A stretch of DNA of 64,000 nucleotides from an uncultured Alphaproteobacteria bacterium. GTDB taxonomy: Bacteria > Pseudomonadota > Alphaproteobacteria > Rhodobacterales > Rhodobacteraceae. Below the pieces are notes generated by a model, which did not search any database, was not told where the DNA came from, and saw nothing but the letters and a program-made list of their open reading frames with translations. The stretch is from positions 1,160 through 65,159 of the forward strand of contig CABZEW010000002.1 of NCBI GenBank assembly GCA_902524845.1, written 5' to 3'. Position numbers and translations under genes: made by a program. This document shows positions 6,630 to 44,490 of this stretch, piece by piece (position 1 is the first letter of the stretch; every line of letters starts with the position of its first letter).

Positions 6630-6705
6630 GCCTCTATAGCTCAGTTGGTAGAGCAACTGATTTGTAATCAGTGGGTCGGGAGTTCGAGTCTCTCTGGGGG
6701 CACCA
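6630..6705 (+). tRNA. tRNA-Thr (anticodon UGU)
   Basis: 76 nt, GCCTCTATAGCTCAGTTGGTAGAGCAACTGATTTGTAATCAGTGGGTCGGGAGTTCGAGTCTCTCTGGGGGCACCA. The cloverleaf was folded by hand: acceptor GCCTCTA/TGGGGGC, anticodon stem ACTGA/TCAGT with loop TTTGTAA, T-arm GGGAG/CTCTC, encoded CCA. Confidence 0.9.
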
Positions 6706-6784
6706 TCCAGTTACAGTGTTAGCTTTATTTGCTTGGCTTTGATGAAACTTAGTCAAGGAGGGTAGACCAAATGGTAGACCAAAA
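6706..6784 (+). promoter_or_regulatory. attL-side arm (P' arm) with tandem 12-mers overlapping the int start
   Basis: TCCAGTTACAGTGTTAGCTTTATTTGCTTGGCTTTGATGAAACTTAGTCAAGGAG, then GGTAGACCAAAT (6761-6772) and GGTAGACCAAAA (6773-6784). The int ATG (6771-6773) straddles the two 12-mers and the SD AAGGAGG is at 6755-6761. Confidence 0.55.
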
Positions 6785-7886
6785 TGGAGCATATTTATTC
6801 AGAAAACGTGGTATCTACTACTTTTCAAAGCGCATACCATCAGATCTAAAACATTTGTATCGAGTAGAGAGACTAATACATTCTCTTAGAACTAAATGTG
6901 ATAGGAAAGCCAAGTCACAAGCATTAGCTATGTTGCTTAAGCTTGACGATCATTGGTCAAAAGCAAGACTGCACAATGATGTGCTTCACAGAAAATCTCT
7001 CAATCACAACAAAGCCATAAAATTCACGGAAAGTGTTTCAGAGTATCTTTCTGCAAATGGATCTAACCGAAGTATAACTTTTGAAAAAGCTGTGCAGAGA
7101 GCATCCAGATACCTTGTAGAGTCTGTTGGAGATAAAGACCTCAAAAGTTACACACGTGCTAATGCAAATTCTTTTAGAGACTATTTAATTGATAAAGGGT
7201 TGGCAGGTAGCTCAATTACTAGAATACTTACCACAATTAAAGCGATACTTAATTTCGCTAAACGTGAACATAGTTTAAATATGAACAATCATTTTGTTGG
7301 GTTGAACTATGATAGAAGCAAGAGAGTAGGGGGCAGACTACCTATTCCTATGAAGCACCTTCAAGCAATACAGAAGCGATGTGTAGAAATAGATGATGAG
7401 CTAAGATGGCTTGTTGCCCTAGTATCAGATACTGGGATGAGATTAGCAGAAGCTACAGGTCTTTTGGTGGAGGATATAAACTTAGATGCAGATATTCCTT
7501 TTGTCTCTTTAAAAAGTTATCCTTGGAGACCTTTGAAGACGGAGGGAAGCACAAGAGATATCCCTTTGGTTGGACAAGCTTTGTGGTCTGCAAAACGAAT
7601 AAAAACCATGTCACAAAGTAGGTTCGCCTTTCCTAGGTATAATACCATGTCTATTACGAGCTCTAATACAGCTAGTGCTACACTCAACAAGTGGTTAAAA
7701 AGCGAAAGTAATTATAATTATACGATGCATTGTTTTAGACACTCATTACGAGATAGATTGAGAAATATTAACTGTCCCTCAGACGTAGCTGATCAGATTG
7801 GTGGCTGGTCTAATAAAACGGTAGGGCAGGAATATGGTAGTGGCTATGCTTTGAGGAATTTGGAATGGTGGATGAGTTTAATTTAA
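6771..7886 (+). CDS. tyrosine-type site-specific integrase
   Basis: 371 aa. The N-terminal YYFSKRIPSDL-type arm is common in tRNA-island integrases. The catalytic signature is present: R in DTGMRLAEATGL, H-x-x-R in HCFRHSLRDRL, and W/Y in GGWSNKTVGQEYGSGY. Sits directly 3' of the tRNA. Confidence 0.9.
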   Translation: MVDQNGAYLFRKRGIYYFSKRIPSDLKHLYRVERLIHSLRTKCDRKAKSQALAMLLKLDDHWSKARLHNDVLHRKSLNHNKAIKFTESVSEYLSANGSNRSITFEKAVQRASRYLVESVGDKDLKSYTRANANSFRDYLIDKGLAGSSITRILTTIKAILNFAKREHSLNMNNHFVGLNYDRSKRVGGRLPIPMKHLQAIQKRCVEIDDELRWLVALVSDTGMRLAEATGLLVEDINLDADIPFVSLKSYPWRPLKTEGSTRDIPLVGQALWSAKRIKTMSQSRFAFPRYNTMSITSSNTASATLNKWLKSESNYNYTMHCFRHSLRDRLRNINCPSDVADQIGGWSNKTVGQEYGSGYALRNLEWWMSLI

Positions 7887-7889
7887 CAA

Positions 7890-9368
7890 TTATTTTGTAT
7901 AATGTCTTCTATGCCTTTCCAACCTCTTCCTGTAGCCCTCAGTCGATACACTTTCATTCACAAAATGCATATTATCTAAATAATAATCTCTGTCTGGTCC
8001 TGTACTGTACTTTGCTTGGTTGACCTGACCAAGCGTAAGATTTTTATTAAACTTTACCTTTGTTTTGTTTTTATTCGTGACATATACAAAGGCTTCCTTC
8101 ATCAGTTTCTCAAGCCTGTCCTCTTCTCCAAAAGGAACGATAAAACTATCATGTACGGTCAGGATAGGCGTATCCGTTTTAACAAAATCTTTAATAATAT
8201 ATTCAGCTATTTTACTATCTATATTCATCAACTCTAATCCTGCACCACTATTAATGAGATGCTTAATCTTTGGGTGCTTATCCTTAATGCTCTGAAGTAT
8301 TTCAGAGAGCTTTTCATCAGGAAATGAATAGCGTACAGAATAGTTTTTATAGTCAAACTCTGATCTAAATGCTTTGAATAAACTGGACTCGTCAGACGCA
8401 TTAAATGCGAGCAAAGTAAGTTGCTTTACGACATCTCGTGCATGATCAGGGTACTCTATGCCCTCTATAGGAATATTGTAGGGGTCTTCATCTGTTGTTG
8501 CCCAGTAGTCTATACCCTCTTTGGCATATGCTAGGATTACATGAAGACCAGAGAAGTCTATTTCAACAGTGGAACTATCATTTAATCGTATAGCTCCTCT
8601 TAATATTTGATCTATTTGCTGCCAGAATCCACCGTAGAAACGTCCTCCCTGATCCCATGAGCTATTGTTGAACACTCTATGGGTGAACTTGCCATGATGG
8701 GTAATGTTGACATATCTAGTTTTACCTGAGTTCTTATCTTTAATCTCTAACATGGGTTTATTCATGTCAGGGATATCTATGAATGTTTTTTCCAACAGAT
8801 CGTTGTTAGCTCGTACAACTTTAGCCATCTCTTCTGTATGTTTTGTAGTCTCATATTCAACATTCTTTTTGTTGCTATCACGTAGAATAATGACTTCTTT
8901 ATTCTTAATATAATTAATATCAAAGTATCCAAATTGTGCAGTCTCAAATGCTTCTATAAGGCGCTCATAAGCCCATATACGGGATGTACGTCCTCCATAC
9001 TCAAGACTACCTTCATAACCTTCTTTAAAGCCTATAAGCCCTACATCTTTGAGTCTGTGAATGACTTGAATGATAGTATCTTTTATATGCAGTTCGTTAT
9101 ATCTGCTCTTACCTTTAGAGAAGACTGTCCCATCACTATACGCATTGGGAGACATGTGAACTCCTATACATAGGTTGGGATCATCTATCCATGCTACATA
9201 GAGATCTAGGAGTACTACTTTGAGTAGTTTTTTACGTATAGTTTTGTTGGCATTATCAGTTAGGAAATATTGCTCATATATAGAGTTCACAAATGTGTTG
9301 GTTTCAGTATAACAACTCCACCTATGGACATCTAAAGGTCTTGAATAGTTATAGTCTCTTGTAACCAT
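7890..9368 (-). CDS. compact polymerase-like protein with T7-type single-subunit RNAP / family A palm motifs
   Basis: 492 aa. WDQGGRFY (239-246) resembles T7 DWRGRVY. EIDFSGLHVILAY (D271) resembles motif A DGSCSGIQH. RDVVKQLTLLAFNAS (K315, F322) resembles motif B RSVTKRSVMTLAYGS. TVHDSFIVP (D407) resembles motif C IHDSFGT. The T7 motifs are quoted from memory and motif order is conserved. Confidence 0.55.
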   Translation of the reverse strand: MVTRDYNYSRPLDVHRWSCYTETNTFVNSIYEQYFLTDNANKTIRKKLLKVVLLDLYVAWIDDPNLCIGVHMSPNAYSDGTVFSKGKSRYNELHIKDTIIQVIHRLKDVGLIGFKEGYEGSLEYGGRTSRIWAYERLIEAFETAQFGYFDINYIKNKEVIILRDSNKKNVEYETTKHTEEMAKVVRANNDLLEKTFIDIPDMNKPMLEIKDKNSGKTRYVNITHHGKFTHRVFNNSSWDQGGRFYGGFWQQIDQILRGAIRLNDSSTVEIDFSGLHVILAYAKEGIDYWATTDEDPYNIPIEGIEYPDHARDVVKQLTLLAFNASDESSLFKAFRSEFDYKNYSVRYSFPDEKLSEILQSIKDKHPKIKHLINSGAGLELMNIDSKIAEYIIKDFVKTDTPILTVHDSFIVPFGEEDRLEKLMKEAFVYVTNKNKTKVKFNKNLTLGQVNQAKYSTGPDRDYYLDNMHFVNESVSTEGYRKRLERHRRHYTK

Positions 9369-9527
9369 ACCTTAGTATATTAGGTCACTAAGATGCTATA
9401 AATACTTAATATTAAGTACTCTTATAAATATAGTAACTAATATATATTATTACTTCCTCCATAAACTTCTTCCATTACCAATAGGTTTTTTAAACTATCC
9501 TTGTTTTAACATGAAAGGAGTAGCCAA

Positions 9528-9689
9528 ATGTGGTTACCAATAACTTGTAAAAGCACCAACGCCTACTACATGCAAAGTATGATAATATTCGTAGCAACAT
9601 TAGCCACTATCCTGCTTTTAACAAAGCTTGGAGCAAAGCCGAAGCAACAGCCAAAGCGGTTTAGGGTGAATGCAAAGACGAAAAGTTAA
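9528..9689 (+). CDS. small membrane protein (53 aa), hypothetical
   Basis: Not in the track. ATG lies 8 nt after AAAGGAG. MWLPITCKSTNAYYMQSMIIFVATLATILLLTKLGAKPKQQPKRFRVNAKTKS has one TM helix and a basic tail. Confidence 0.35.
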   Translation: MWLPITCKSTNAYYMQSMIIFVATLATILLLTKLGAKPKQQPKRFRVNAKTKS

Positions 9690-10538: not shown

Positions 10539-10865
10539 ATGATGAAACTAAAACATTTTATTGCGACACACACTTTTCATTCGGATAAAGTAAAAAAAGA
10601 ATATTTGAAGTTTGTCAAACATAGGAAAAAAAATGCTGAGTGGTTTGAAAATGTACCACAGAGGGAGGATGCCCAACTACATCAATTGTTTATTGGCAAG
10701 GAAGATTTTTTCTTTTGCCACTGGTATGCTGAGAGCGAAAAAGCGATTATTGAAACTTTATCCGAAGCAGGTGCTGATCAATATATGATAACGATGGCCA
10801 CTGAGGTAGGCGTACCTAAAATTGATTTAGATAAAATGACAATGTTGATGGGAAAAATTAAATAA
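10539..10865 (+). CDS. hypothetical protein (possibly DUF4242-like ferredoxin fold)
   Basis: Likely start is MMKLKH at 10539, after AGGGGTG. FFFCHWYAESEKAIIETLSEAGADQYM loosely resembles DUF4242. The stop TAA lies inside the left end of CBR1. Confidence 0.45.
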   Translation: MMKLKHFIATHTFHSDKVKKEYLKFVKHRKKNAEWFENVPQREDAQLHQLFIGKEDFFFCHWYAESEKAIIETLSEAGADQYMITMATEVGVPKIDLDKMTMLMGKIK

Positions 10866-11061
10866 ACCCCATCTGCTGCATAATCCAAGACCATACTACG
10901 TGTATACCCCTTGCGTCCCATGCGTGGGAGGGGTCACTTAGACTTTGAAACAAATCGTGCCTATTGATATGAACACGGGGATACCTGAGTTCCTGTAATT
11001 CACCTCTTTTTGTTGCTAATGGTGCAGTATAAGGGCAGTTAACTTTATCTCAGCCGCACCA
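10861..11061 (+). repeat. cassette boundary repeat CBR1 (diverged 'type 2')
   Basis: AATAAACCCCATCTGCTGCATAATCCAAGACCATACTACGTGTATACCCCTTGCGTCCCATGCGTGGGAGGGGTCAC ... AATGGTGCAGTATAAGGGCAGTTAACTTTATCTCAGCCGCACCA. The 12-mers and tRNA-derived part are degenerate. Confidence 0.6.
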
Positions 11062-11081: not shown

Positions 11082-12365
11082 CTAAAGCTGTAATTTGTGA
11101 ATACCGATCTTTTCTGTTCTACCTGGAATACTAAAATTTGCCTCGAAATCAGACTTGATTTCTTCAGATAATCGTTTGGCCACGGCATCGCTAATAATTA
11201 CTTGGCTATCAAATTTTTTACACGCATCACATAAACGATTAGCTACATTCACTGTATCTCCTAAAACGGTGAATTCAACTCTCTGATCTCCGCCAATGTT
11301 CCCAATTATGCATGGGCCAAAATGAATGCCAATTCTGTGCGTTATTTGAGGTAGTTTCTTTTCTGCGCGTTCTTTTGACCACTGGTTCATAGAAATTTGC
11401 ATTTTTCTCGCGCATTCAAATGCATTTTGAGCGTCATTGCCTCTACTAGTAGGTGTCCCAAACGTAGCCATAACTGCATCGCCTATAAATTTGTCAACAG
11501 TACCACCTGAACTAAATATCGCAGCAACCATTTTGGACTGGTACTCAGAAACCAATCGAACTACATCTTTGGGATCCATCGTTTCGGTCATCTTCGTAAA
11601 GCCATTTATATCTGTAAACAAAACTCCTACTAAAGAAGATTTTTCTACTTCAGTAATGTCAGAAAAACGGCTATTCTCTATTTCATCTTTAACCTCAGGA
11701 GAAAAATATCTACCTAATACCTGGTTTGCCCTCTCAAAATTCGAAGCTTGATTTGTTACTTTATCGAACTGCCAGCTAGTTACCGTAACCACTATAACCG
11801 TGAATACAACAAATAAACAATTCAAAACAAACCAGTCCAAATTTATAGCGAGTCCGTCTGAGAAAACAACTGGCAGGTTGCTAGAAAAAAATACACCATC
11901 AATGCTTAAAGCCATATATTGCTGGATAACAATGCTAGTTACAAATAATGCCGACAGGAATGCAGAAATAGTCAATCTGAGATATAGAACAGATACCACA
12001 ATAAACATAATACCAGGCGCGAATTGATAATCAACAATCCTTCCAACATTAGACTCAACGAGTAATGGATCATTATCAAGATTCGTAAGTATAGCGACAC
12101 CAATATTTGTTAAAATTATTAATAAAAGGCTCAAGAAAAGTAAAGGGCGATAATTTTCGATTCTAGTGTTCAACGCTATTGCTGCATTTAGTAGCGAACT
12201 AGTAAGAAACAAAGTAGGAAACCCAAACTTACCTAAGTCAGTGCTTGCGGTAGGTATTAGGAGTTGTGAAAATACTACCATCATCTGAATCATAGCATAG
12301 ACCCAGCTCACCATCTTCAACCCAGAGACATATCTTGAAATTAATTGATCGTTATTCATCATCAA
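11082..12365 (-). CDS. membrane-anchored class III adenylate/guanylate cyclase
   Basis: 427 aa with about 6 TM helices followed by a cyclase homology domain (VLFTDINGFTKMTE, DKFIGDAVMATFG, EFTVLGDTVNVANRL). Paralog of 33600..34895. Confidence 0.85.
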   Translation of the reverse strand: MMMNNDQLISRYVSGLKMVSWVYAMIQMMVVFSQLLIPTASTDLGKFGFPTLFLTSSLLNAAIALNTRIENYRPLLFLSLLLIILTNIGVAILTNLDNDPLLVESNVGRIVDYQFAPGIMFIVVSVLYLRLTISAFLSALFVTSIVIQQYMALSIDGVFFSSNLPVVFSDGLAINLDWFVLNCLFVVFTVIVVTVTSWQFDKVTNQASNFERANQVLGRYFSPEVKDEIENSRFSDITEVEKSSLVGVLFTDINGFTKMTETMDPKDVVRLVSEYQSKMVAAIFSSGGTVDKFIGDAVMATFGTPTSRGNDAQNAFECARKMQISMNQWSKERAEKKLPQITHRIGIHFGPCIIGNIGGDQRVEFTVLGDTVNVANRLCDACKKFDSQVIISDAVAKRLSEEIKSDFEANFSIPGRTEKIGIHKLQL

Positions 12366-12462: not shown

Positions 12463-12686
12463 GTTGTAAACTCCCCATCTGTTGCACACTCCAAGAAAAT
12501 ACTACGTGTACACCCCTAGTGGTCTGGCATGGGGGTAGACCAAACGGTAGACCAAAATTGTTTAATTGATGCGTAAATCTATGTTAAACTTTCAGATAAG
12601 TAGCCAAGAAAAGCTAATTATAGTTGGTAGAGCAACTGATTTGTAATCAGTGGGTCGGGAGTTCGAGTCTCTTTGGGGGGGCACCA
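12463..12686 (+). repeat. CBR2, full-length 'type 1' repeat with pseudo-tRNA-Thr
   Basis: GTTGTAAACTCCCCATCTGTTGCACACTCCAAGAAAATACTACGTG... The 12-mers are GGTAGACCAAAC at 12534-12545 and GGTAGACCAAAA at 12546-12557. A spacer is followed by the tRNA segment at 12623-12686, which is identical to the gene over GAGCAACTGATTTGTAATCAGTGGGTCGGGAGTTCGAGTCTCT and has a 5-nt D-loop deletion and a non-pairing 5' acceptor. Confidence 0.85.
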
Positions 12687-12741
12687 TCGAGTTCTAGCTC
12701 TGTTTATTTGGCTTTGATGCAGCTTAGTCAAGGATGTAGAC
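12687..12741 (+). repeat. P' arm remnant without integrase
   Basis: TCGAGTTCTAGCTCTGTTTATTTGGCTTTGATGCAGCTTAGTCAAGGATGTAGAC aligns with 6706-6767 next to the real tRNA. Homology stops inside the first 12-mer, where int would start. Confidence 0.7.
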
Positions 12742-15228: not shown

Positions 15229-15284
15229 ATTGAACCATAGGGACACAAAAATTAATTTACAAGATTGACGTAACTGGAGTTCTT

Positions 15285-15400
15285 TTCTGCTGTGCTTGAC
15301 TGCAGCGTACTCCAAGAAAATTCTGACTGTACGTCCCCAGTAGTCCTGCATAGGGGTAGACAAAACTCTAAACAAATATATGCGTTGGGAGACCACCCAG
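15285..15400 (+). repeat. CBR3 (decayed left module with degenerate 12-mers)
   Basis: TTCTGCTGTGCTTGACTGCAGCGTACTCCAAGAAAATTCTGACTGTACGTCCCCAGTAGTCCTGCATAGGGGTAGACAAAACTCTAAACAAATATATGCGT. Confidence 0.55.
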
Positions 15401-15454
15401 AGTGGGCGAGATTAGTTCATCCTACTTGTTTATTTCTAGCAATATTCCATAAAT

Positions 15455-15483
15455 TTGACAATTTAGAGTTTTTTGTAGATAAT
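15455..15483 (+). promoter_or_regulatory. sigma70-type promoter of module B copy 1
   Basis: TTGACA (15455-15460), 17-bp spacer, GATAAT (15478-15483). The same geometry is conserved in copy 2. Confidence 0.6.
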
Positions 15484-15489
15484 ATCGCG

Positions 15490-15593
15490 GGAACAAGTCT
15501 GTGAGAATGTTGTACCAGTTGGGGAGGAAAATTCCACAGAAACACTATTTCTATACATTATTCTGAAAATTAAACAGGCTGTTCCTTTTTTTT
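15490..15593 (+). ncRNA. candidate ~105-nt structured RNA (sRNA or leader) of module B copy 1
   Basis: Predicted +1 is about 7 nt after the -10. 5' GGAACAAGTCTGT (15490-15502) can pair with ACAGGCTGTTCC (15574-15585), directly followed by T8 (15586-15593). An alternative hairpin, CTGTGAGAAT/ATTCCACAG, presents a CCAGTTGGGGAGGAAA loop. Confidence 0.45.
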
Positions 15594-15623
15594 AAAAAAA
15601 AAGGGCCACACTTTGTATGGCCC
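15594..15623 (-). terminator. intrinsic terminator-like hairpin reading on the minus strand
   Basis: GGGCCA...TGGCCC hairpin (15603-15623) preceded by A9 on the + strand, which is hairpin plus U9 on the minus strand. Conserved in copy 2. Confidence 0.4.
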
Positions 15624-16119
15624 AGTGGGGAGGAAATGTCCGATTAGGACAATAGTTTGATGTTAAACTAAATATCTTAGACTGCAAGAATAACGTGACG
15701 TTAACGTAAACTTAACGTTGAGTAATTCTTAATAAAGTTACCTTCGATCTGGCAACACTTTAGTTTGCAATTAAATTACCTTACAAGTTTAAAAGGATGC
15801 TCAGGTATCTGAAGTTATTGTGTAAATGTTTCGGTCAATTATTTGCTAATTTTGACCGCTTGATTGAAACAATTCTTAAAATTGTAGCTTAATAAAATTA
15901 TAACTCGTCGTAATGAGGGTTTACTTGGTTTTATAACAAGAGCGAAAACGAATTTGTAATTAATGATTCACTAAAAAATTTATTACTGCATCAGTTTGTA
16001 TTTTTAAAAAAGGCATAGTGAACGCAAGGTCTCAGTTTTATTATTTTGGAATTGAGATAATGGCATAAACAAAAAGGATCAGATTAAATATTTCCAGAGT
16101 TTCAATTCTGATGTCGTTT

Positions 16120-18086: not shown

Positions 18087-18312
18087 GTTGTAAATACCCC
18101 ATCTGCTGCACACTTCAAGAACATACTACGTGAGTACCCCCTATGTCCCACGCAAGGGTGGGGTAGACCAAACGGTAGACCAAAAGTGATTAATTTATGC
18201 TTTAATCTATGATATGCTGGTAAAAGAGTAGCCAAGAAAAGCTAACTATAGTTGGTAGAGCAACTGATTTGTAATCAGTGGGTCGGGAGTTCGAGTCTCT
18301 CTGGGGGCACTA
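18087..18312 (+). repeat. CBR4, full-length type 1 repeat with pseudo-tRNA-Thr
   Basis: GTTGTAAATACCCCATCTGCTGCACACTTCAAGAACATACTACGTG... 12-mers at 18162-18173 and 18174-18185. The tRNA segment at 18251-18312 ends CACTA instead of CACCA. The track ORF 18053..18235 lies inside this repeat and is judged spurious. Confidence 0.85.
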
Positions 18313-19147: not shown

Positions 19148-19233
19148 GCTTATCTCTTACCCCGCCAGATAACTCTTCTCAAATGAGCTTACAACAAATT
19201 TATAACAAGGAAATAGTAATTTACCGTATTTTA

Positions 19234-19420
19234 CCAAGAACGTACTACCCGTACATCCCTTATGTCCCCTGCGGGGGAGAGGTAGACCAAATTCTTTTAA
19301 ATGATGCGTAAATCTATGTTAAGCTATTAGAGAAGAAGCTAAGAAAAGCCAATAATAGCTGGAAGGGCAACTGATTTGTAATCAGTGGGTCGGGAGTTCG
19401 AGTCTCTCTGGGGGGCACCA
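19234..19420 (+). repeat. CBR5, type 1 repeat truncated at left, with pseudo-tRNA-Thr
   Basis: Starts at CCAAGAACGTACTAC and lacks the CCCCATCTGCTGCAC part. Single 12-mer GGTAGACCAAAT at 19281-19292. tRNA segment at about 19355-19420, with a perfect anticodon-to-T-arm match and one extra G. Confidence 0.8.
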
Positions 19421-21723: not shown

Positions 21724-21730
21724 ATGGTTC

Positions 21731-24722: not shown

Positions 24723-24917
24723 CATCTGACCTGCTTCCCCAAGAATATACTACGTGCACATTCCCTGTGTCCCATGCGTGGGAGGGCTAGACAAAACGGT
24801 AGACAAATATGTGCGTCTTGACATGAATTACACTTTATCTAACATAGTGATATTGCTTACGTCGATGTAGTCATTGGTGCAGGTACTGAGCAATTAACTC
24901 TCTCTGGGGGCGTCACA
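24723..24917 (+). repeat. CBR6 (type 2)
   Basis: CATCTGACCTGCTTCCCCAAGAATATACTACGTGCACATTCCCTGTGTCCCATGCGTGGGAGG GCTAGACAAAAC GGTAGACAAATA ... ATTGGTGCAGGTACTGAGCAATTAACTCTCTCTGGGGGCGTCACA. The right flank (AAAATAATTGAT...) is also shared with CBR9. Confidence 0.75.
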
Positions 24918-25233
24918 TTATCAATGACTTGGAAAATAATTGATCTAACTGTCTGTCAGCATTGGGTTTCTGGTGGCACGGACTATGGAGCTACATAACG
25001 AATATATTACCCTATATTTGCTGTCATGTGACCTGTACACCAGGGCACCCCACTTATCTAATTAGGATCCCTGATAGTATTTTGTGATATGAATCGCGCT
25101 CAAGAAATTGTTGGGAATTTAATCTTTTTAAGTTTTTTATAATATGAAGTATTTTGTCACAATTTTGATAAAATTTTGTATTACTTTTTATTTCTTCTGT
25201 TAATTTATATTTTTATGTGGAAAGGGAGTTCTA

Positions 25234-28699: not shown

Positions 28700-28775
28700 G
28701 TTGTAAACACCCCATCTGCTGCACACTCGAAGTGCATAATAAGTGAGTACCGCCCTCAGCTTCTATGCGTGAAGA
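28700..28775 (+). repeat. CBR7 (left module only)
   Basis: GTTGTAAACACCCCATCTGCTGCACACTCGAAGTGCATAATAAGTGAGTACCGCCCTCAGCTTCTATGCGTGAAG. No 12-mers or tRNA part. Confidence 0.65.
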
Positions 28776-28819
28776 AGGAGAATAAAAGCTGAATGTTATT
28801 TTTTTAATCCGTGGTCTCT

Positions 28820-31254: not shown

Positions 31255-31278
31255 TTTATTAAGACCTTTTTTTTCGTA

Positions 31279-31363
31279 CTCCATCCGCTGCATACTCCAA
31301 GAATAGAATATGGCCTCACTCCTAGTGGTCCTGCATTGGGGTAGACAAAACAGTAGACAAACA
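31279..31363 (+). repeat. CBR8 (left module plus 12-mers)
   Basis: CTCCATCCGCTGCATACTCCAAGAATAGAATATGGCCTCACTCCTAGTGGTCCTGCATTGG GGTAGACAAAAC AGTAGACAAACA. Confidence 0.7.
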
Positions 31364-31420
31364 TGAGAAAGTTCTGCCTAATAAAACAAGTTCATAAAAT
31401 AAACTTAAAAGGAGAGTAGA

Positions 31421-31777: not shown

Positions 31778-31907
31778 CTCAATTTTAATTTGAGTGGTCT
31801 TTTCAATAAAAGTGACTCTCCACGAGTTTGGCAAGCCACTCGAATATTTTTAAGCTAGGATTATTAAATTTAGTGAGTAGTTTCTGGTGAGTGAATTAAT
31901 ATTAGAT

Positions 31908-32105
31908 CATAAACACCCCATCTGTTGCACACTTTAACAATAGAATAACTTCATACTTCTAGTGGTCTGGCATAAAGGTAGAAAAACGGTAGACAAATAG
32001 GTGTGGCGTGATATGGACCTCTCTTTATCTAACAAATTGATACTCCTTAGTCTGATTTAATGATTGGTGCGGGTAGGGAGTAATTAATTTTTCTGGAGGC
32101 ACCAC
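31908..32105 (+). repeat. CBR9 (type 2)
   Basis: ATCATAAACACCCCATCTGTTGCACACTTTAACAATAGAATAACTTCATACTTCTAGTGGTCTGGCATAAAGGTAGAAAAAC GGTAGACAAATA ... ATTGGTGCGGGTAGGGAGTAATTAATTTTTCTGGAGGCACCA. Confidence 0.75.
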
Positions 32106-32363
32106 AAAATTATTATCTTATAAAATAATTGATAGTGATAGAGAACGTACCCAGTGGACGGAACAGTGATCTTTCGAGTAAGTCTGTTAACGCATAAACA
32201 ATTAGATTTGATTGACTTGTAATTTGTATTCTAGCGCACATACACTTATTCCAATTACGAATTTAAAATTTGTTGTAGTTGCTCTATGTGAATGCCAGTA
32301 GTCTAATAGGAGTAGGTGAGATCAGACCAGGTTATTATTTTTTTTTAAGTATTTTTCAACAAT

Positions 32364-32392: not shown

Positions 32393-32398
32393 ATGCCC

Positions 32399-32503
32399 GG
32401 GGACTAGTCTGTGAGAATGTTGTACCAGTTGGGGGAGGAAAATTCCACAGGAACTCGATTTCAACAGATTATTTTGAAATTTAAAACAGACAGTTCCCTT
32501 TTT
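32399..32503 (+). ncRNA. candidate ~105-nt structured RNA of module B copy 2
   Basis: GGGGACTAGTCTGT (32399-32412) can pair with ACAGACAGTTCCC (32486-32498), followed by T5 (32499-32503). Same internal hairpin and CCAGTTGGGGGAGGAAA loop as copy 1. Confidence 0.45.
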
Positions 32504-32532
32504 AAAAAAAAGGGCCACTTTTGGTGTGGCCC
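32504..32532 (-). terminator. minus-strand intrinsic terminator-like hairpin (copy 2)
   Basis: A8 followed by GGGCCAC TTTTGGT GTGGCCC (32512-32532). Confidence 0.4.
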
Positions 32533-33004
32533 AGTTGGAGGAGGAAATGTCCGATAGGACAGTAGTTTGATGTTAAACTAAACGCACCAATTTGCAAGAA
32601 TAACGTTACGTTAACGTAAACTACAAGCAGACTTACTAAAATAAAGTAATCCACAAATTGATCGACGATTTAGTTTTCAATTAAACTACCTTACTAAGTT
32701 TAAGAAAATACTTTTGGTTTTGAGATTTACGTGCAGATGTCTCGCTCGATTATTTGCTAAGGTTTAATGCGTAATAAAAATAAATCTCAAATTGTAGCTT
32801 TATAAAGTGAATACTTGCTGTAATTAAGCGCTTGAACGTTCTCACAACAAAAAACAAGAAATGTGAAATAAAGTTGATCAACTTAGAATTTACACAAAGT
32901 TGAATTTATATTTGATGAATTTAAAGCGAGTTGACGTTAGGTTTCAGTTTTCTTTTTTAAATCAGTTCATATGATGAACTTAAGTTACGAGAAAGGATAT
33001 TAAG

Positions 33005-33599: not shown

Positions 33600-34895
33600 G
33601 TGAAGACAGAAAGAGATCATAAAAGAGATAGGCATGTCACTGGACTAAAGCTGTCCTCTGCCGTGTTTTTGGGAAACAGTGTCATAGGGATAATTAATTT
33701 TTTCTATTTTCAGACTTTTAATTTACCTTTTTCTAACCAAATCGCCTTAGCAAACTTAATAATTGGTATGGCAATTGCGGGGTCAATTTTCTATTTTGCA
33801 AACAGAGAAAATTATAATTTGCTCCTAGCTATTTCTGTTTTAAAAGTGATAACTTCGTTTGTCATATTTCGCCAAATTATCCCATACGATTTTGTTAATA
33901 GCGTAGAAAATCCAGGAGACTGGATAGGTAGAAGCATGGACTTCCAATTTTTGGTGCCACTAAGTTTTCTGCTTTTTTCGTTAACTTATTTACGATTTTC
34001 TGTAGTCCTTTTTTTGTTACTTTTTATTACAATTTACTTTTTTGGATATGAAATTTATGGGTATTTTAAAATGTTTCCGGACGCATATTTGTCAGACGAC
34101 ATGGCAAAGGTGTACTCTGATAGTAATGCGATTTATAGAGTTTTTTTTATTGCAAATGTAGGGAACTTTGTTGTTTATGGCACCATTGTACTCTTTGTAA
34201 GCTTCCTAATCGAAAGACTGACGGGAAATGTTGCGAGGTTTGAGAAAACTAACGCTCAATTGGGAAGATATTTCTCGCCCCAAATCAAGGAGGAAATAGA
34301 AACTTCCGAGCTAGATAATATAGGTAAAAATGCTAAGGATCTTTTTGTCGCAATTCTCTTTACTGATATAGTAGGCTTCACCAAATTGTCAGAAAAAATG
34401 GATCCTAAAGATGTATTATCTCTTTTATCAGATTATCAAGCGATTATGGTAGATTGTATATTTGCTCACAGAGGTACTGTCGATAAATTCATCGGGGACG
34501 CCGTAATGGCAAATTTCGGTACACCGAAATCCGCTGGCAATGATGCACAAAATGCATTTAATTGTGCATTGGAGATGAATTTGAAGCTACAAAAATTCAA
34601 CAAATTTAGAAAGAAAAAAGGGCTAAAAGAGATTAAGCACAGAATAGGAATTCATTATGGACCCTGTGTCGTTGGGAACATAGGTAGTGAACTCAGGACA
34701 GAGTTTGCGGTTATCGGAGACTCAGTAAACGTAGCAAGTAGAATATGTGACGCATGTAAGGAGTTTGATACGAACTTAATAATAAGTAAAATTGTTGCCG
34801 ATAAAATAAATATGAATGGTAGTTTTGTACAAATTAAGGACTACAAAATAAGAGGCCGCAGAGAAGTAATTGATTTGGTGAAAATTTCTAATTAA
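33600..34895 (+). CDS. membrane-anchored class III adenylate/guanylate cyclase
   Basis: 431 aa, GTG start, ~6 TM helices plus a cyclase domain (ILFTDIVGFTKLSE, DKFIGDAVMANFG, EFAVIGDSVNVASRI). Paralog of 11082..12365, sharing the linker LGRYFSPxxKxEIExS. Confidence 0.85.
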   Translation: MKTERDHKRDRHVTGLKLSSAVFLGNSVIGIINFFYFQTFNLPFSNQIALANLIIGMAIAGSIFYFANRENYNLLLAISVLKVITSFVIFRQIIPYDFVNSVENPGDWIGRSMDFQFLVPLSFLLFSLTYLRFSVVLFLLLFITIYFFGYEIYGYFKMFPDAYLSDDMAKVYSDSNAIYRVFFIANVGNFVVYGTIVLFVSFLIERLTGNVARFEKTNAQLGRYFSPQIKEEIETSELDNIGKNAKDLFVAILFTDIVGFTKLSEKMDPKDVLSLLSDYQAIMVDCIFAHRGTVDKFIGDAVMANFGTPKSAGNDAQNAFNCALEMNLKLQKFNKFRKKKGLKEIKHRIGIHYGPCVVGNIGSELRTEFAVIGDSVNVASRICDACKEFDTNLIISKIVADKINMNGSFVQIKDYKIRGRREVIDLVKISN

Positions 34896-34975
34896 ATACC
34901 TCGTCTCCTGCACACTCCAGAATAGTATATGAGTATTCCTTTTGTAGTCTGGCTTTGGGTTAGTAAAGAGTGGTG
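34890..34975 (+). repeat. CBR10 (decayed left module)
   Basis: AATTAAATACCTCGTCTCCTGCACACTCCAGAATAGTATATGAGTATTCCTTTTGTAGTCTGGCTTTGGGTTAGTAAAGAGTGGTG. The cyclase stop TAA (34893-34895) aligns with the TAA of the repeat's TGTAAAC. Confidence 0.6.
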
Positions 34976-35130
34976 CGTTTTTAATCAAAAACCTTATTGT
35001 TTTTAGTTTAATAAACATGTTTATTTAGACGCGAAGGCTTATTATTCTGGTAAAAGTCATTAGGTTTGTTGGAAGATAGGTAGATTACCTCACTTATTTT
35101 TAAATAAGATGCTTAGTTGAGCGGAAGAAA

Positions 35131-36871: not shown

Positions 36872-37090
36872 TCATAATTTAACCTGATAAATAAGTACCC
36901 CACCTTTTGTACTCTTTAAGTCATAATACCGGCACGCCCCGTATGTGTCATACGTTGGAGAGTACACTAAATGATAATCCGAAAATGGCTGCAAGTCTCT
37001 TGTCAAGTCACCGATCCATACTATGTTCTGTTTAGGTCTGTATCTATGGTTAATTTGTCGAACAACCGTCGCGAAAAAAGCTTGGAGCAA
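36872..37090 (-). CDS. hypothetical protein (72 aa)
   Basis: ORF only. Competes with the overlapping + strand ORF 36971..37201. Confidence 0.2.
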   Translation of the reverse strand: MLQAFFATVVRQINHRYRPKQNIVWIGDLTRDLQPFSDYHLVYSPTYDTYGACRYYDLKSTKGGVLIYQVKL

Positions 37091-38250: not shown

Positions 38251-38330
38251 CGTCAATAATTGCTGGTGAATATTTATGACAAAAATAGAGTAATTCCTAA
38301 GGATAATTAAGTTCAAAAAACAACAGCACG

Positions 38331-38400
38331 CTATTTGGTGCAAACTAAAAGAATAAACTACTTGAATACCCCTTGTGTTGAATACGCGAGAGGTCAGCAC
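38331..38400 (+). repeat. CBR11 (decayed left module)
   Basis: CTATTTGGTGCAAACTAAAAGAATAAACTACTTGAATACCCCTTGTGTTGAATACGCGAGAGGTCAGCAC aligns with CBR1. Confidence 0.5.
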
Positions 38401-38455
38401 ATACGTGAGTAAATCGAAATCATTTGATCTATGTAAGCGCCAATACGTTATAGCT

Positions 38456-39497: not shown

Positions 39498-39560
39498 GTT
39501 GTAAACAACCCATCTGCTGCAGACTCCAAGAAGATACTTTTCTGCTCAATTCTCCAACAA
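39498..39560 (+). repeat. CBR12 (truncated left module)
   Basis: GTTGTAAACAACCCATCTGCTGCAGACTCCAAGAAGATAC... The track ORF 39478..39702 overlaps it and is judged spurious. Confidence 0.6.
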
Positions 39561-40326: not shown

Positions 40327-40354
40327 GTTAGTTAGTAGATATTCCTTGCATTCA

Positions 40355-42022: not shown

Positions 42023-42099
42023 TTTCTTAAATAATTGAAATATGCGTTATACAGTTTATGAAAAATGCTCTTTGATCACTAATAAATTTATAACACTCA

Positions 42100-42166
42100 A
42101 AATATTCTACCTGTGGGCTCCCGGCATTCAACGCGTTGGAAGGTCAGACCAAAGGGTAGACAAAAT
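42100..42166 (+). repeat. CBR14 (decayed, keeps 12-mers)
   Basis: ...CTACCTGTGGGCTCCCGGCATTCAACGCGTTGGAAGGTCAGACCAAAG GGTAGACAAAAT. Confidence 0.5.
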
Positions 42167-42252
42167 TGGTTATTATTTTCTATGTAGAACAAGTGAAATT
42201 TATTAGTGCTCTCTCAAACATTGTTTATGAACGCAAAATTCTTTTTGCAAAC

Positions 42253-42636: not shown

Positions 42637-42739
42637 CTTAAAGTCCTCCTATCCTTGAGATTCAATGTTTATAACCCAAAACACGTCTTTTAATCAAATA
42701 AAAACGTCTAGCATGTTTGTATATACTTTTTATAAATGA

Positions 42740-42937
42740 CTGCAATCACCCCATCGACTGCGCATTAAAGGAACATAATATCCTGACACCCTTTGCATCA
42801 TGCGTGGGGGGTAAACAAAATGGTAGAAAAATTTGTACATCTTGACATGAACTACACTTTCGCTAACTCATTGGTGGTGCTTTCCATAATGTATGTGTTA
42901 GTGCAGGTATAGAGCAATAATTCCCTCTTGGGCGCCA
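42740..42937 (+). repeat. CBR15 (type 2)
   Basis: CTGCAATCACCCCATCGACTGCGCATTAAAGGAACATAATATCCTGACACCCTTTGCATCATGCGTGGGGGGTAAACAAAAT GGTAGAAAAATT ... TTAGTGCAGGTATAGAGCAATAATTCCCTCTTGGGCGCCATTG. Confidence 0.7.
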
Positions 42938-42976
42938 TTGGTCTGCTGCGTTAGCTCTATTTACTCGCTTTGATAA
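42938..42976 (+). repeat. second P' arm remnant without integrase
   Basis: GTCTGCTGCGTTAGCTCTATTTACTCGCTTTGATAA aligns with CAGTTACAGTGTTAGCTTTATTTGCTTGGCTTTGATGAA next to the real tRNA. Confidence 0.55.
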
Positions 42977-43012
42977 TATACATACTGAAAGTTTAAAATT
43001 TGACGGAAAAAA

Positions 43013-44305
43013 TTACTTTAGTGGAGAACTTTTTCTAGCATTAAATTTTTTTACGCTCTTTTTTTTAAAATTTCTACCTTTAGCGGGATATGCTCTTTTC
43101 CCCTTACTATCAATTTTTTTCGGCAACTCATTATTAGGAGGTTTTTGTTTGTGGACACGTAGACTTGTAGAGTGGTACTCAGTTTTAATTTTAGCTTTTA
43201 TTAACCTTTCAATTGCTCGAAGCTTTTTTATTTCTGATTCTGAACAAAATGATATTGCATCTCCTATCATTCCAGCTCGTGCAGTGCGACCAATTCTGTG
43301 AACATAGCTCTCTGGAGCTTCTGGCAAATCATAGTTGATCACTGCTTCTACTCCCGGAACATCTATCCCTCTCGCAGCGATATCTGTAGCCACCAATAAA
43401 GGACACGAACCCGTTTTAAAATTCATTAAGGATTTTTGTCTCTGATTTTGTGATTTGTTTCCATGAATTGAAGAAACAGCGAAGCCATCTTTCGATAGGC
43501 TTTTTACAACCCTTTCTGCCCCATGCTTAGTTTTGGTGAAGACTAGTAATCTGGCTCCCGATCTTTTTTGTGCAATTTCTTTTAAAGCATCTATTTTTTG
43601 AGCAGAGCTTAAAATTAATATTTTTTGATTAACTTTATCAACTGGTTTAGCAATTACCGAAACTGCAACCTCTACCGCTTCCACCATAAACTTCGTTACA
43701 AGATTCTTGATCTCTATCGGCATCGTTGCAGAAAAAAGTAACGTTTGTCGTTTTTTTGGGGTAGTGCTCAGGATCCTCTTTATTGCAGGTAAAAATCCAA
43801 TATCTAACATTTGGTCAGCTTCGTCTAATACCGCATAATTTACGCTAGTTAGGTCGATTGATTTTTGTGAAATATGGTCCTCTATTCTGCCTGGAGTTCC
43901 AACTATAATATCAGAGCCTTTTCTTAAGTCTCTAAATTGTTTAAAGATTGGCACACCACCGACGATCGTGCACGTTTTTAAATTAGTCGCCGATGCAAAA
44001 GGTTTAACCACTTCCCCAATCTGTTGAGCAAGCTCTCTTGTCGGGGATAACACGAGTATTTTTACTTTTCTGAATTTGCCTGTCTGCTGTGTTCCATACA
44101 ACTTGCTTAGCAACGGAAGAATGAATGCAGCAGTTTTACCAGTGCCCGTCTGGGCAAGTCCTATAACATCCTTTCCTTCTAATATGATTGGTATTGATTT
44201 CTCTTGAATAGGGGTGGGGACATGTAGCCCTTGTTTATCTAATGTTTTCAAAATGGGAGATACGAGACCCAAAGATCTAAAATTCAAGCTAGGATATCCT
44301 TTCAA
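43013..44305 (-). CDS. DEAD-box ATP-dependent RNA helicase (RhlE-like)
   Basis: Q motif (TPIQ), AQTGTGKT, DEAD, SAT, HRIGRTAR and a basic C-terminal tail. Confidence 0.9.
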   Translation of the reverse strand: MKGYPSLNFRSLGLVSPILKTLDKQGLHVPTPIQEKSIPIILEGKDVIGLAQTGTGKTAAFILPLLSKLYGTQQTGKFRKVKILVLSPTRELAQQIGEVVKPFASATNLKTCTIVGGVPIFKQFRDLRKGSDIIVGTPGRIEDHISQKSIDLTSVNYAVLDEADQMLDIGFLPAIKRILSTTPKKRQTLLFSATMPIEIKNLVTKFMVEAVEVAVSVIAKPVDKVNQKILILSSAQKIDALKEIAQKRSGARLLVFTKTKHGAERVVKSLSKDGFAVSSIHGNKSQNQRQKSLMNFKTGSCPLLVATDIAARGIDVPGVEAVINYDLPEAPESYVHRIGRTARAGMIGDAISFCSESEIKKLRAIERLIKAKIKTEYHSTSLRVHKQKPPNNELPKKIDSKGKRAYPAKGRNFKKKSVKKFNARKSSPLK

Positions 44306-44428
44306 ACTTTTTTGCAGTGGTCCATGAGATGAATGTTATTCGCTTTAAAGACTATTCCAATTCATGATGTATATGCTGGTTCTACACTTAATGCAAAGGA
44401 GATTTAAAGCATACTTGGTTTGACAAAA

Positions 44429-44490
44429 CACATCCTGCTCCACAATCCAAAGCTTCTCATTATTGTTACCCACTATTGTAGAAACCTCAA
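44429..44490 (+). repeat. CBR16 (very decayed, tentative)
   Basis: ACACATCCTGCTCCACAATCCAAAGCTTCTCATTATTGTTACCCACTATTGTAGAAACCTCAA aligns loosely with the left module and first 12-mer. Confidence 0.3.

What the first reader, a model, noticed from the sequence alone, without database searches (positions are those of the whole stretch)
6630..44490. tRNA-Thr-anchored array of ~16 gene cassettes bounded by same-strand att-like repeats (integron-like logic, tRNA-derived att site)
Downstream of an intact tRNA-Thr(UGU) and a tyrosine integrase I count 16 copies of one composite repeat, all on the + strand whatever the orientation of the flanking genes. The consensus has a left module (GTTGTAAAC CCCCATCTGCTGCACACTCCAAGAA N ATACTACGTG ... 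GTCCCATGCGTGGGG), then GGTAGACCAAAC GGTAGACCAAAA. Full-length copies add a ~70-nt spacer and a copy of the tRNA from the D-arm to CCA. The copies lie 0-140 nt from gene ends and cut 38 kb into units of 0.7-5.5 kb. Each unit holds 1-5 functionally unrelated genes: cyclases, a methyltransferase, a molybdoenzyme, a nucleotidase, Ni/Co uptake proteins, hydrolases, an AhpD-like protein, a propeller protein and a helicase. Serial site-specific integration at one tRNA attB would leave exactly this pattern (cargo plus attR per event), yet only the tRNA-proximal unit keeps an integrase. One integrase with many short cassettes and recombination sites abutting ORF ends parallels an integron, but there is no IntI or attC and gene orientation is mixed. 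The closest described analogues I know are tycheposon-built islands in Prochlorococcus and 'additive' flexible islands next to tRNAs. A repeat family this well preserved and this densely arrayed may be a distinct cassette-capture system.
Basis: partly seen in the sequence, partly recalled or inferred. Interest (0 to 1): 0.9.

Follow-up and report, generated by a model that had tools for sequence, protein, structure and literature searches.

The report
tRNA-anchored island of shuffled gene cassettes
Downstream of a threonine tRNA gene, an uncultured marine roseobacter carries a 36-kb island of about 15 small gene units, each ending in the same leftover integration-site sequence; this is a clear example of a known way ocean bacteria gain genes, and it shows that the units are reshuffled at one short conserved sequence.

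Summary
An intact tRNA-Thr(UGU) and a tyrosine integrase are followed by 15 same-strand copies of one composite repeat (6.7-43.0 kb). None occurs in the 26 kb of flanks.

The repeat is the distal (P) arm of the attachment site of a family of small integrative elements. It has a conserved 38-nt block, a GC inverted repeat, two GGTAGACCAAA boxes, a spacer and 17-61 nt of the tRNA 3' end. The same box pair overlaps the integrase start codon. The integrase model resembles lambda integrase, N-terminal arm-binding domain included.

A related genome has an empty site: tRNA and helicase lie 145 nt apart. Three other genomes carry different cargo at this tRNA. The module also forms arrays beside Leu and Ser tRNAs in related single-cell genomes, with only the tRNA-matching core swapped.

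Cassettes recur in other genomes in different orders. Linkage between cargo and the rest of the module breaks at the block, at scattered positions. That points to homology-driven recombination rather than precise integron-like exchange.

Verdict: an additive, tycheposon-like tRNA island and a new variant of a known kind. It is not an integron. The helicase is core flank, not a cassette.

The parts
6630..6705 (+). Intact tRNA-Thr(UGU). This is attL, with the core in its 3' part.
   Evidence: ARAGORN; Rfam tRNA 70 bits. The same tRNA with 145 nt to the helicase gene is the empty site in L102.
6706..6784 (+). P' arm: a 55-nt conserved stretch, then the tandem boxes GGTAGACCAAA x2 (6761-6784). The boxes cover the ribosome-binding site and codons 1-4 of the integrase.
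   Evidence: Sequence. Nearly identical in five loci at this tRNA and at internal junctions in L038 and L024. A Tranquillimonas integrase of the same family has the same layout next to tRNA-Phe.
6771..7886 (+). Lambda-type tyrosine integrase (DUF6538 N-terminal domain, SAM-like core-binding domain, catalytic domain).
   Evidence: Pfam. AlphaFold model with pLDDT 82 has three N-terminal strands plus a helix. Best Foldseek matches are Tn1549 integrase and full-length lambda integrase. No IntI family hit.
9520..9545 (+). Degenerate third box pair (GTAGCCAAATGTGGTTACCAATAAC). With it, box repeats flank the integrase and the 492-aa gene.
   Evidence: Sequence. In L024 the P' arm, one box and the ATG are joined directly to the homologue of window ~9545-9680, with the integrase missing.
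10857..11044 (+). Module M1: block, GC inverted repeat, a different box pair (ACTTTGAAACAA type), spacer, then the 3' end of tRNA-Leu(GAG) with a conserved flank. It looks like a Leu-island junction carried inside the Thr island.
   Evidence: The same sequence follows Leu(GAG) cores in L025 and L009.
12463..12734 (+). Module M2: full copy (block, inverted repeat, GGTAGACCAAAC GGTAGACCAAAA, 64-nt spacer, tRNA-Thr nt 14-74), then a P' arm remnant (12690-12734) with no integrase.
   Evidence: (families D2, D7, D12).
15290..15384 (+). Module M3: partial block plus boxes, followed by a conserved non-coding cassette.
   Evidence: (D5).
18087..18312 (+). Module M4: full copy with 61 nt of tRNA-Thr (100% identical).
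19233..19420 (+). Module M5: second half of the block, one box, spacer and 61 nt of tRNA-Thr.
24736..24920 (+). Module M6: second half of the block, boxes, the 'type-b' ~110-nt spacer and the last 17 nt of tRNA-Thr.
   Evidence: (D3, D6, D14).
28700..28803 (+). Module M7: block followed by decayed sequence, no tRNA part.
31269..31369 (+). Module M8: block, inverted repeat and boxes, no tRNA part.
   Evidence: (D5).
31906..32110 (+). Module M9: block, boxes, type-b spacer and a degenerate 17-nt tRNA-Thr end.
   Evidence: (D6, D14).
34893..34995 (+). Module M10: decayed copy.
   Evidence: E=4e-13.
36892..36985 (+). Module M11: weak, decayed copy. It travels with the cytochrome b561 cassette to its right in three other genomes.
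   Evidence: E=1.5e-4.
38319..38424 (+). Module M12: decayed copy.
   Evidence: E=3e-15.
39498..39540 (+). Module M13: left half of the block only.
42093..42172 (+). Module M14: second half of the block plus boxes.
   Evidence: (D3).
42739..42975 (+). Module M15: block, boxes, type-b spacer, a degenerate tRNA 3' end and a P' arm remnant. This is the last module before the core flank.

Best explanation
The region 6,706 to about 43,000 is an additive genomic island at the 3' end of tRNA-Thr(UGU). It was built by a family of small integrative elements that use a lambda-type tyrosine integrase.

Attachment site anatomy. The element's attP reads: [38-nt conserved block - GC inverted repeat - two GGTAGACCAAA arm boxes - 65-110-nt spacer] - core (the last 17-61 nt of the tRNA) - [55 nt - two more boxes over the integrase start codon]. 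Integration regenerates the tRNA and leaves the P arm plus a partial tRNA at the far end of the element.

How the array grows. Repeated integrations push older units away from the tRNA. This step is inferred from the array and from the internal P-O-P' junctions.

How integrases are lost. Integrase genes are deleted, which is shown directly in related loci, leaving short cargo-plus-module units.

How units may travel. The resident integrase can probably excise itself together with a variable number of downstream units, by recombining attL with any downstream core. It could then drop them elsewhere. This step is inferred.

A second layer of recombination. Recombination within the highly conserved block deletes and reshuffles units within and between islands. 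Linkage analysis shows this happens. The mechanism is inferred to be homology-driven, because breakpoints are scattered across the block.

Other tRNA targets. The same module serves islands at several Leu and Ser tRNAs, with only the tRNA-matching core exchanged.
For: Anatomy:
- tRNA, P' arm, boxes over the integrase start.
- Full attR-type copies with boxes, spacer and 61 nt of tRNA.
- Internal P-O-P'-int junctions in L038 and L024.
- P' remnants without an integrase at window 12690-12734 and 42930-42975.

Integrase type:
- DUF6538 plus catalytic domain.
- The model has a three-strand-plus-helix N-terminal domain.
- Best fold matches are Tn1549 and full-length lambda integrase.
- A 48%-identical Tranquillimonas integrase sits 63 nt from tRNA-Phe with GTAGACCA boxes over its start codon.

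Insertion polymorphism:
- L102 has tRNA-Thr 145 nt from the helicase, is collinear with window ..6705 and 43028.., and has no module in 21 kb.
- L039, L040 and L041 have the same tRNA and integrase with unrelated cargo, and modules plus partial tRNA only downstream.

Integrase decay:
- tRNA-Leu(CAA), P' arm, box and ATG with no integrase in L024 and L066.
- Truncated or frameshifted integrases in L008, L023, L024 and L038.

Other tRNA targets:
- The type-b spacer is conserved while its last 17 nt match Thr, Leu(GAG), a Leu(CAA)-like end or another tRNA.
- Co-oriented arrays lie directly downstream of Leu(CAA), Leu(GAG), Leu(TAG) and Ser(GGA) genes.

Shuffling:
- Window cassettes recur at 80-96% identity in other single-cell genomes, in other orders.
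- Twelve of 26 breakpoints lie at modules (p=7e-6).
- Eleven of 12 left-cargo families are joined to more than one kind of right part.
- A metagenome contig has the tRNA directly abutting cargo, with no P' arm. This fits drop-off after excision.
Against: - No excised circle, empty-site read or recombination assay is available, and no circular contig was found among 59 metagenome contigs. Activity is therefore inferred.
- If crossover happened only at the tRNA core, cargo should stay linked to its whole P arm. It does not, so a second process is needed and its mechanism is unknown.
- The reason the 38-nt block is more conserved than the boxes or the core is unexplained.
- Five loci from single-cell genomes and three metagenome contigs have modules in both orientations. 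Simple serial integration does not predict that.
- Most window units show no trace of an integrase, and some spacings are only 0.64 kb. Not every unit need have arrived as an autonomous element.
Confidence: 0.72

Rival explanations
1. An active, integron-like cassette system. The conserved 38-nt block, not the tRNA-derived core, is a dedicated recombination site. A recombinase (the DUF6538 integrase or a host enzyme) excises integrase-less units there as circles and reinserts them into any array.
For: - Linkage between cargo and the rest of the module breaks at the block in 11 of 12 cargo families.
- The block is the most conserved part of the module (at least 90% at about 28 positions across 54 copies) and survives where the boxes and core are gone.
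- The same cassettes occur at different tRNAs and in different orders.
- Several start-to-start spacings (0.64-1.6 kb) leave too little room for a 1.1-kb integrase gene plus cargo.
Against: - Truncation and switch points are spread over about 40 nt (profile start 15-34, profile end 35-78), not at one crossover position.
- No inverted-repeat core is evident in the block.
- The neighbouring GC inverted repeat has no covariation support (86.0% of cells paired versus 84.7% in shuffles).
- No circular contigs.
- Deletion between directly repeated blocks would by itself produce the same loss of linkage.
- The integrase is lambda-like, not IntI-like.
Confidence: 0.15
2. A static scar field. The units are only decayed remains of once-complete elements. 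They no longer move. All differences between genomes come from independent integrations plus deletions.
For: - Direct evidence of integrase deletion and truncation.
- About half of the window modules have lost the tRNA core.
- Scattered breakpoints.
Against: - The same cassette appears in different orders, in permuted order (X-Y versus Y-X), and beside different tRNAs with different cores.
- Cassettes are 80-96% identical across genomes whose arrays otherwise differ. This implies transfer of units, not only loss.
Confidence: 0.1
3. A generic dispersed repeat (REP, MITE or regulatory element) that merely accumulates in variable regions and has nothing to do with integration.
For: - The module is found on several contigs per single-cell genome and in both orientations in some loci.
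- It lies close to gene ends.
Against: - It is physically continuous with tRNA 3' fragments in about half of the window copies (seven) and in many copies elsewhere.
- It shares its box pair with the integrase start region.
- There are 15 copies in the island and none in 26 kb of window flanks or in 21 kb around the empty site.
- It has no terminal inverted repeats or target duplications.
- Eleven of 30 blocks from single-cell genomes contain a tRNA gene.
Confidence: 0.03

Closest known systems
Tycheposon-built genomic islands of Prochlorococcus (Hackl et al., bioRxiv 10.1101/2020.12.28.424599)
   Same: - Islands abut specific tRNA genes.
- Integrase-bearing elements sit next to the tRNA.
- Successive integrations push older elements distally.
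- Partial tRNAs and broken integrases are scattered through the island.
- Most island material is left-behind cargo.
- A proposed capture-and-drop-off mechanism fits the tRNA-abutting cargo in L068.
   Different: - No replication or packaging hallmark genes lie next to the integrase.
- Spacing between modules is much smaller (0.64-5.5 kb).
- A long conserved module (100-270 nt), not just about 40 nt of tRNA, marks each unit and is shared between islands at different tRNAs.
- The host is a low-GC roseobacter lineage.
- Homology of the integrase to tycheposon recombinases was not tested.
Additive flexible genomic islands (Alteromonas, PMC4898812; Methylophilaceae tRNA-Lys island, PMC10872708)
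   Same: - A tRNA-adjacent integration hotspot.
- Cassettes vary in number and order between strains.
- Cassettes are marked by repeats of part of the tRNA (20 nt of tRNA-Lys in Methylophilaceae).
- Nearly identical cassettes occur in divergent genomes.
   Different: - Here the repeat anatomy is resolved: arm boxes, spacer, a swappable core and a conserved block.
- The same module is used at several tRNAs.
- The joint between units maps to the block rather than to the tRNA repeat.
Integrons and attC clusters without integrase (CALINs)
   Same: - An array of short units, each ending in a related repeat in one orientation.
- Unit-level presence/absence and reordering between genomes.
- Arrays that lack a nearby integrase also exist (L025).
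   Different: - No IntI and no attI.
- The repeat is not an attC-type imperfect palindrome.
- Genes point both ways and several units hold multi-gene operons.
- Anchoring is in a tRNA.
- Breakpoints are not at one position.
Accretion of integrase-less cis-mobilizable elements (CIMEs) next to integrative elements such as ICESt3 (own knowledge)
   Same: Integrase-less units bounded by att-type sites lie in tandem with an integrase-bearing element at one tRNA or gene 3' end. In principle they could be excised with it or by it.
   Different: - No conjugation or mobilization genes.
- Many more and much smaller units.
- Mobilization is untested here.
Phage lambda attP and integrase (heterobivalent tyrosine recombinase with arm-type sites; own knowledge plus PDB 1z1b/1z1g/5j0n matches)
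   Same: - Three-domain integrase.
- Repeated arm boxes on both sides of a core, at distances of roughly 55-110 nt.
   Different: - Not a phage.
- The core lies inside a tRNA 3' end.
- The P' boxes overlap the integrase start codon.
- No excisionase was identified.

Membership tests
Additive (tRNA-anchored) flexible genomic island | Lies directly downstream of an intact tRNA gene | tested here: met
   tRNA-Thr(UGU) at 6630-6705; the island starts at 6706.
Additive (tRNA-anchored) flexible genomic island | Direct repeats of part of the tRNA downstream of inserted units | tested here: met
   Three 61-nt copies and further ~17-nt copies of the tRNA 3' end.
Additive (tRNA-anchored) flexible genomic island | Content differs between related genomes at the same locus, including empty sites | tested here: met
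   L039-L041 carry different cargo. L102 is an empty site. L101 has a different distal end.
Tycheposon | Integrates at a tRNA and is flanked by full and partial tRNA copies | tested here: met
Tycheposon | Hallmark replication or packaging module (primase/helicase, PICI-like genes) beside the recombinase | tested here: not met
   The integrase-proximal unit holds a 492-aa protein (phrog_4756, unknown function), two small ORFs and a cyclase. No such domains appear in Pfam, NCBIfam or PHROGs.
Tycheposon | Recombinase belongs to the tycheposon recombinase families | not tested
Tycheposon | Demonstrated excision and circular intermediates | not testable with these tools
   No reads were available; no circular contigs were found.
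Integron | IntI-type integrase | tested here: not met
   NCBIfam gives only sub-threshold Xer-like hits. Pfam gives DUF6538 plus Phage_integrase. The integron integrase structure 2a3v ranks 50th, behind lambda and Tn1549 integrases.
Integron | attC sites: imperfect palindromes recombined at one conserved position | tested here: not met
   No consensus structure. The GC inverted repeat has no covariation support. Breakpoints are spread over about 40 nt.
Integron | Mostly promoterless single-gene cassettes in one orientation behind Pc | tested here: not met
   Genes lie on both strands and a 4-gene molybdoenzyme unit is present.
Integron | Unit-level gain, loss and reordering with breakpoints at the repeats | tested here: met
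Lambda-type (heterobivalent) tyrosine integrase system | Integrase with an N-terminal arm-binding domain plus core-binding and catalytic domains | tested here: met
Lambda-type (heterobivalent) tyrosine integrase system | Repeated arm-type boxes on both sides of the core | tested here: met
   GGTAGACCAAA x2 at 6761-6784 (P') and at 12534-12557 and 18162-18185 (P). Binding itself is not shown.
CIME-type accretion | Integrase-less units bounded by att sites, in tandem with an integrase-bearing element | tested here: met
CIME-type accretion | Mobilization in trans by the neighbour's integrase | not testable with these tools
   Needs an experiment or read-level data.
REP / MITE | Dispersed through core intergenic regions, independent of tRNA genes and integrases | tested here: not met
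   No copies in the window flanks or around the empty site. Copies occur in arrays, often with tRNA fragments.

The most novel reading that the evidence does not exclude
The 38-nt block (CCCCATCTGCTGCACACTCCAAGAANATACTACGTG) at the end of every unit is a dedicated recombination or transfer site. It would act as an attC-like or oriT/pac-like signal that lets integrase-less units be exchanged between arrays at many tRNAs. That would make this a tRNA-anchored cassette system separate from integrons, in an abundant ocean bacterium.
Probability: 0.15. Interest if true: 0.85.

Novelty: new variant of a known kind. Interest (0 to 1): 0.58.

Why it matters
Additive islands beside tRNA genes hold much of the flexible gene pool of ocean bacteria, but how small gene units get there has mostly been inferred from bare tRNA repeats.

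This island gives an unusually readable case:
- a full attachment-site anatomy, with arm boxes on both sides and a core that is swapped to retarget different tRNAs;
- an empty site;
- visible stages of integrase loss;
- a short conserved sequence where units are recombined.

That turns a descriptive model into specific experiments: box binding, recombination of P-O-P' with the tRNA, and the effect of deleting the block. It also extends tycheposon-like island building to low-GC pelagic roseobacters that are known mainly from single-cell genomes.

Tried and rejected
- Circular forms. None of 59 metagenome contigs carrying the block has terminal overlaps.
- Phage or satellite link. The block pattern has no match in 2.9 million viral contigs.
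- RNA structure. RNAalifold finds no consensus structure for 54 copies. The CCCC...GGGG inverted repeat is paired in 86.0% of cells versus 84.7% in shuffles, so it has no covariation support. Rfam finds nothing in the module itself.
- A single precise crossover at CCAAGAA. This looked likely from a few half-modules, but the full set of truncation points is spread out, so I dropped it.
- A 16th copy after the helicase (44435-44450). Not significant.
- The helicase as a cassette. Rejected: it is adjacent to the tRNA in the empty-site genome.
- Exact-sequence look-ups of the window's own integrase and 492-aa protein found no other contigs.
- Promoter, LexA-box, IHF-site and dif-like readings of the block were checked by eye. 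None fitted. None was tested further.
- Literature searches found no description of this module or of DUF6538 integrases.


Full report

ARAGORN finds a single tRNA in the window, tRNA-Thr(UGU) at 6630-6705 on the + strand. The ORF that follows (6771-7886, +) has a DUF6538 domain, a SAM-like domain and a Phage_integrase catalytic domain.

Repeat finding, BLAST and a profile HMM built from the copies agree on 15 copies of one composite repeat. All are on the + strand, between 10,858 and 42,841. Fourteen have E-values from 1e-27 to 1e-12, and one weak copy sits at 36892.

The sub-motifs are far above chance. The 25-mer matches 6 times against 0.00 expected, and the 11-nt box 11 times against 1.05. 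No copy lies in the 26 kb of window outside the island, even at E<=10.

Three copies carry 61 nt of the tRNA, from the D-arm to the 3' end.
- The copies are of several kinds.
- A possible extra copy near 44435 is not significant.
- The island ends at about 43.0 kb rather than 44.49 kb.

**2. Anatomy of the repeat**

An alignment of 54 copies from the window and related loci shows five parts in order:
- a nearly invariant 38-nt block, ACCCCATCTGCTGCACACTCCAAGAANATACTACGTG;
- a GC-rich inverted repeat, CCCC...GGGG, with two alternative interiors;
- two tandem 11-12-nt boxes, usually GGTAGACCAAAC GGTAGACCAAAA;
- a spacer;
- part of a tRNA 3' end.

There are at least three spacer and box types. 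'Type a' has a 64-nt spacer and tRNA-Thr from the D-arm onward. 'Type b' has a conserved ~110-nt spacer and only the last 17 nt of a tRNA. 'Type c' has different boxes (ACTGTAAAACAA ACTGTGAAACAA).

The type-b spacer stays conserved while its final 17 nt change to match tRNA-Thr, tRNA-Leu(GAG), a Leu(CAA)-like end or another tRNA.

The box pair also sits 55 nt downstream of the intact tRNA, where it covers the ribosome-binding site and the first four codons of the integrase (MVDQ).

**3. What the repeat is**

These parts fit the attachment site of an element with a lambda-type integrase:
- P arm: block, inverted repeat, boxes, spacer.
- Core: the tRNA 3' part.
- P' arm: 55 nt plus boxes, then the integrase gene.

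The junction beside the tRNA is nearly identical in five genomes. Two loci hold internal junctions that read P arm, core, P' arm, integrase in one piece (L038 and L024). That is what a tandem integration should leave.

In the window, the copy at 12463-12734 and the last copy (42739-42975) are each followed by a P' arm remnant without an integrase.

The AlphaFold model of the integrase (pLDDT 82) has three N-terminal strands and a helix ahead of the core-binding and catalytic domains. Its best structural matches are Tn1549 integrase and full-length lambda integrase, and the integron integrase ranks only 50th.

A 48%-identical integrase in Tranquillimonas rosea sits 63 nt from tRNA-Phe with GTAGACCA...GGAGACCAAG over its start codon. 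Boxes over the start codon therefore appear to be a family trait. That the boxes are arm-type binding sites is an inference. Binding was not tested.

**4. The island is an insertion polymorphism**

A 566-kb metagenome contig from a relative (L102) is collinear with the window on both sides. It has only 145 nt between tRNA-Thr and the DEAD-box helicase gene, and no module in 21 kb. The island is therefore 6,706 to about 43,000, and the helicase is core flank, not a cassette.

Three single-cell genomes have the same upstream genes (threonyl-tRNA synthetase, IF3, an alpha/beta hydrolase), the same tRNA and a related integrase. Their cargo is entirely different, and modules with partial tRNA copies lie only downstream. 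A fourth genome shows the distal end of its island next to the helicase, with a different set of units.

**5. Host and distribution**

Proteins in the same 90%-identity clusters as window proteins, and the closest integrase and helicase relatives, carry the name Paracoccaceae (roseobacter group) where a name is given. The window has about 36% GC.

A scan of 185,579 species genomes with a 22-nt block pattern gave about 30 hits in some 17 single-cell genomes labelled 'uncultured Alphaproteobacteria AG-...'. About 8 further hits were the expected chance matches.

In those 8-kb blocks the module occurs in arrays. Eleven of 30 blocks contain a tRNA gene. Co-oriented arrays lie directly downstream of:
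- Thr(UGU);
- Leu(CAA);
- Leu(GAG);
- Leu(TAG);
- Ser(GGA).

 Fifty-three marine metagenome contigs also carry the module. No viral contig does. This is not a generic dispersed repeat, but it is also not specific to tRNA-Thr.

**6. Integrase loss is directly visible**

In L024 and L066, tRNA-Leu(CAA) is followed by its P' arm, a box and the ATG. After that comes sequence that in the window lies 1.65 kb beyond the integrase.

The window has a degenerate third box pair at 9520-9545. Box repeats therefore bracket the integrase and the 492-aa gene, which gives a simple route to that deletion.

L008 has a module fused directly to a box and the first 51 integrase codons. L023 keeps only codons 2-75. 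The integrases in L024 and L038 are split into frame-shifted pieces.

**7. Units move and are reshuffled**

Window units recur at 80-96% nucleotide identity in other genomes with other neighbours. Examples are the cyclase unit, the alpha/beta hydrolase unit, the cytochrome b561 unit, the 5'-nucleotidase unit, the AhpD-like unit and a non-coding unit.

Of 26 distinct synteny breakpoints, 12 lie within 60 nt of a module, against 11% expected (p=7e-6).

One window module (10857-11044) carries the 3' end of tRNA-Leu(GAG) and the same following sequence as Leu-island modules elsewhere.

A metagenome contig (L068) has tRNA-Thr running directly into cargo with no P' arm. Its two cargo segments occur in the opposite order in a Leu(GAG) island.

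These patterns fit the capture-and-drop-off model proposed for tycheposons. In that model the integrase excises with a variable number of downstream units, reintegrates, then leaves without them.

**8. Where the joint lies**

I compared 75 modules pairwise:
- Among the 50 pairs whose left cargo is orthologous (at least 80% identity), only 6 share the sequence to the right of the block.
- Among the 50 pairs that share the distal right part, 31 also share the inverted repeat and boxes, but only 6 share the left cargo.

By family, 11 of 12 cargo families are joined to more than one kind of right part. The block is therefore the recombination joint, not the tRNA core. Crossover at the core alone cannot produce this.

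The switch and truncation points are spread over about 40 nt. The neighbouring inverted repeat has no covariation support.

The simplest reading is recombination, including deletion, between directly repeated copies of the best-conserved stretch. A dedicated site-specific step is not excluded, and I give it about 15%. Why the block is so conserved remains unexplained. A binding site for an accessory factor of integration or excision is my best guess, untested.

**9. Complications**

Five loci from single-cell genomes and three metagenome contigs have modules on both strands. In two genomes an integrase next to the tRNA, or next to an internal core, is followed by the same inverted array. That makes it a real arrangement, not an amplification artefact.

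Some unit boundaries shared between genomes have no module, for example around the 492-aa gene.

**10. Comparison with known systems**

The island meets every tested feature of an additive tRNA-anchored flexible island. It behaves like a tycheposon-built island but lacks the hallmark replication or packaging genes.

It is not an integron:
- no IntI;
- no attC-type site;
- mixed gene orientation;
- scattered breakpoints.

The new features are:
- the resolved attachment-site anatomy;
- one module serving several tRNA targets through a swapped core;
- the block as the unit joint;
- the host lineage.

I found no published description.

**11. Verdict**

This is a real, well-preserved additive island and a new variant of a known kind. 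The integron analogy is not supported as stated.

Noticed in passing
window 15400-15920 and 32310-32830 (sRNA-like hits at 15588-15657 and 32497-32567, both on the - strand): A ~450-nt non-coding unit occurs twice in the island (85-97% identical in pieces) and in many related arrays. Each copy contains a full-length but sub-threshold match to the alphaproteobacterial sRNA mmgR/suhB (RF00519; 35 bits against a gathering score of 41; E=1.5e-4 and 2e-5). The match has a CCUCC motif and a terminator hairpin.
   Followed up: partly
window 11082-12365 (-), 33600-34895 (+), 13375-15396 (-), 16120-18042 (-): Four class III nucleotide cyclase proteins lie in separate units. Two match Pycsar defence cyclase (PycC) models strongly (E=4e-32 and 6.5e-26). 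No neighbouring effector gene was recognised, and both have long N-terminal regions of unknown function.
   Followed up: partly
window 7890-9368 (-): The 492-aa protein next to the integrase has no Pfam or NCBIfam match. It matches phage family phrog_4756 (unknown function, E=3e-53). In three other genomes it occurs without an integrase beside it.
   Followed up: partly
window 9530-9680; also L024 245-400 and L002 2300-2430: A conserved ~150-nt non-coding stretch (CTTGTAAAAGCACC...GGAGCAAAGCCGAAGCAACAGCCAAAGCG) lies upstream of the 492-aa gene. It recurs in other islands, once fused directly to a P' arm where an integrase has been lost.
   Followed up: no
window 44568-44867 and 44973-45767 (+): The AMP-binding enzyme gene next to the helicase is split into two ORFs here. 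It is a single 490-aa gene in two relatives (L101, L102). This could be a pseudogene or an assembly error.
   Followed up: no
L004 1-2800 and L038 400-2750: In two single-cell genomes an integrase is followed by the same array of units whose modules point the opposite way. Simple serial integration does not predict this.
   Followed up: partly
window 20866-24621 (+): A three-gene molybdenum hydroxylase unit (FAD, 2Fe-2S and molybdopterin subunits) has about 44% GC against about 36% for the rest of the window. This suggests a more distant origin.
   Followed up: no
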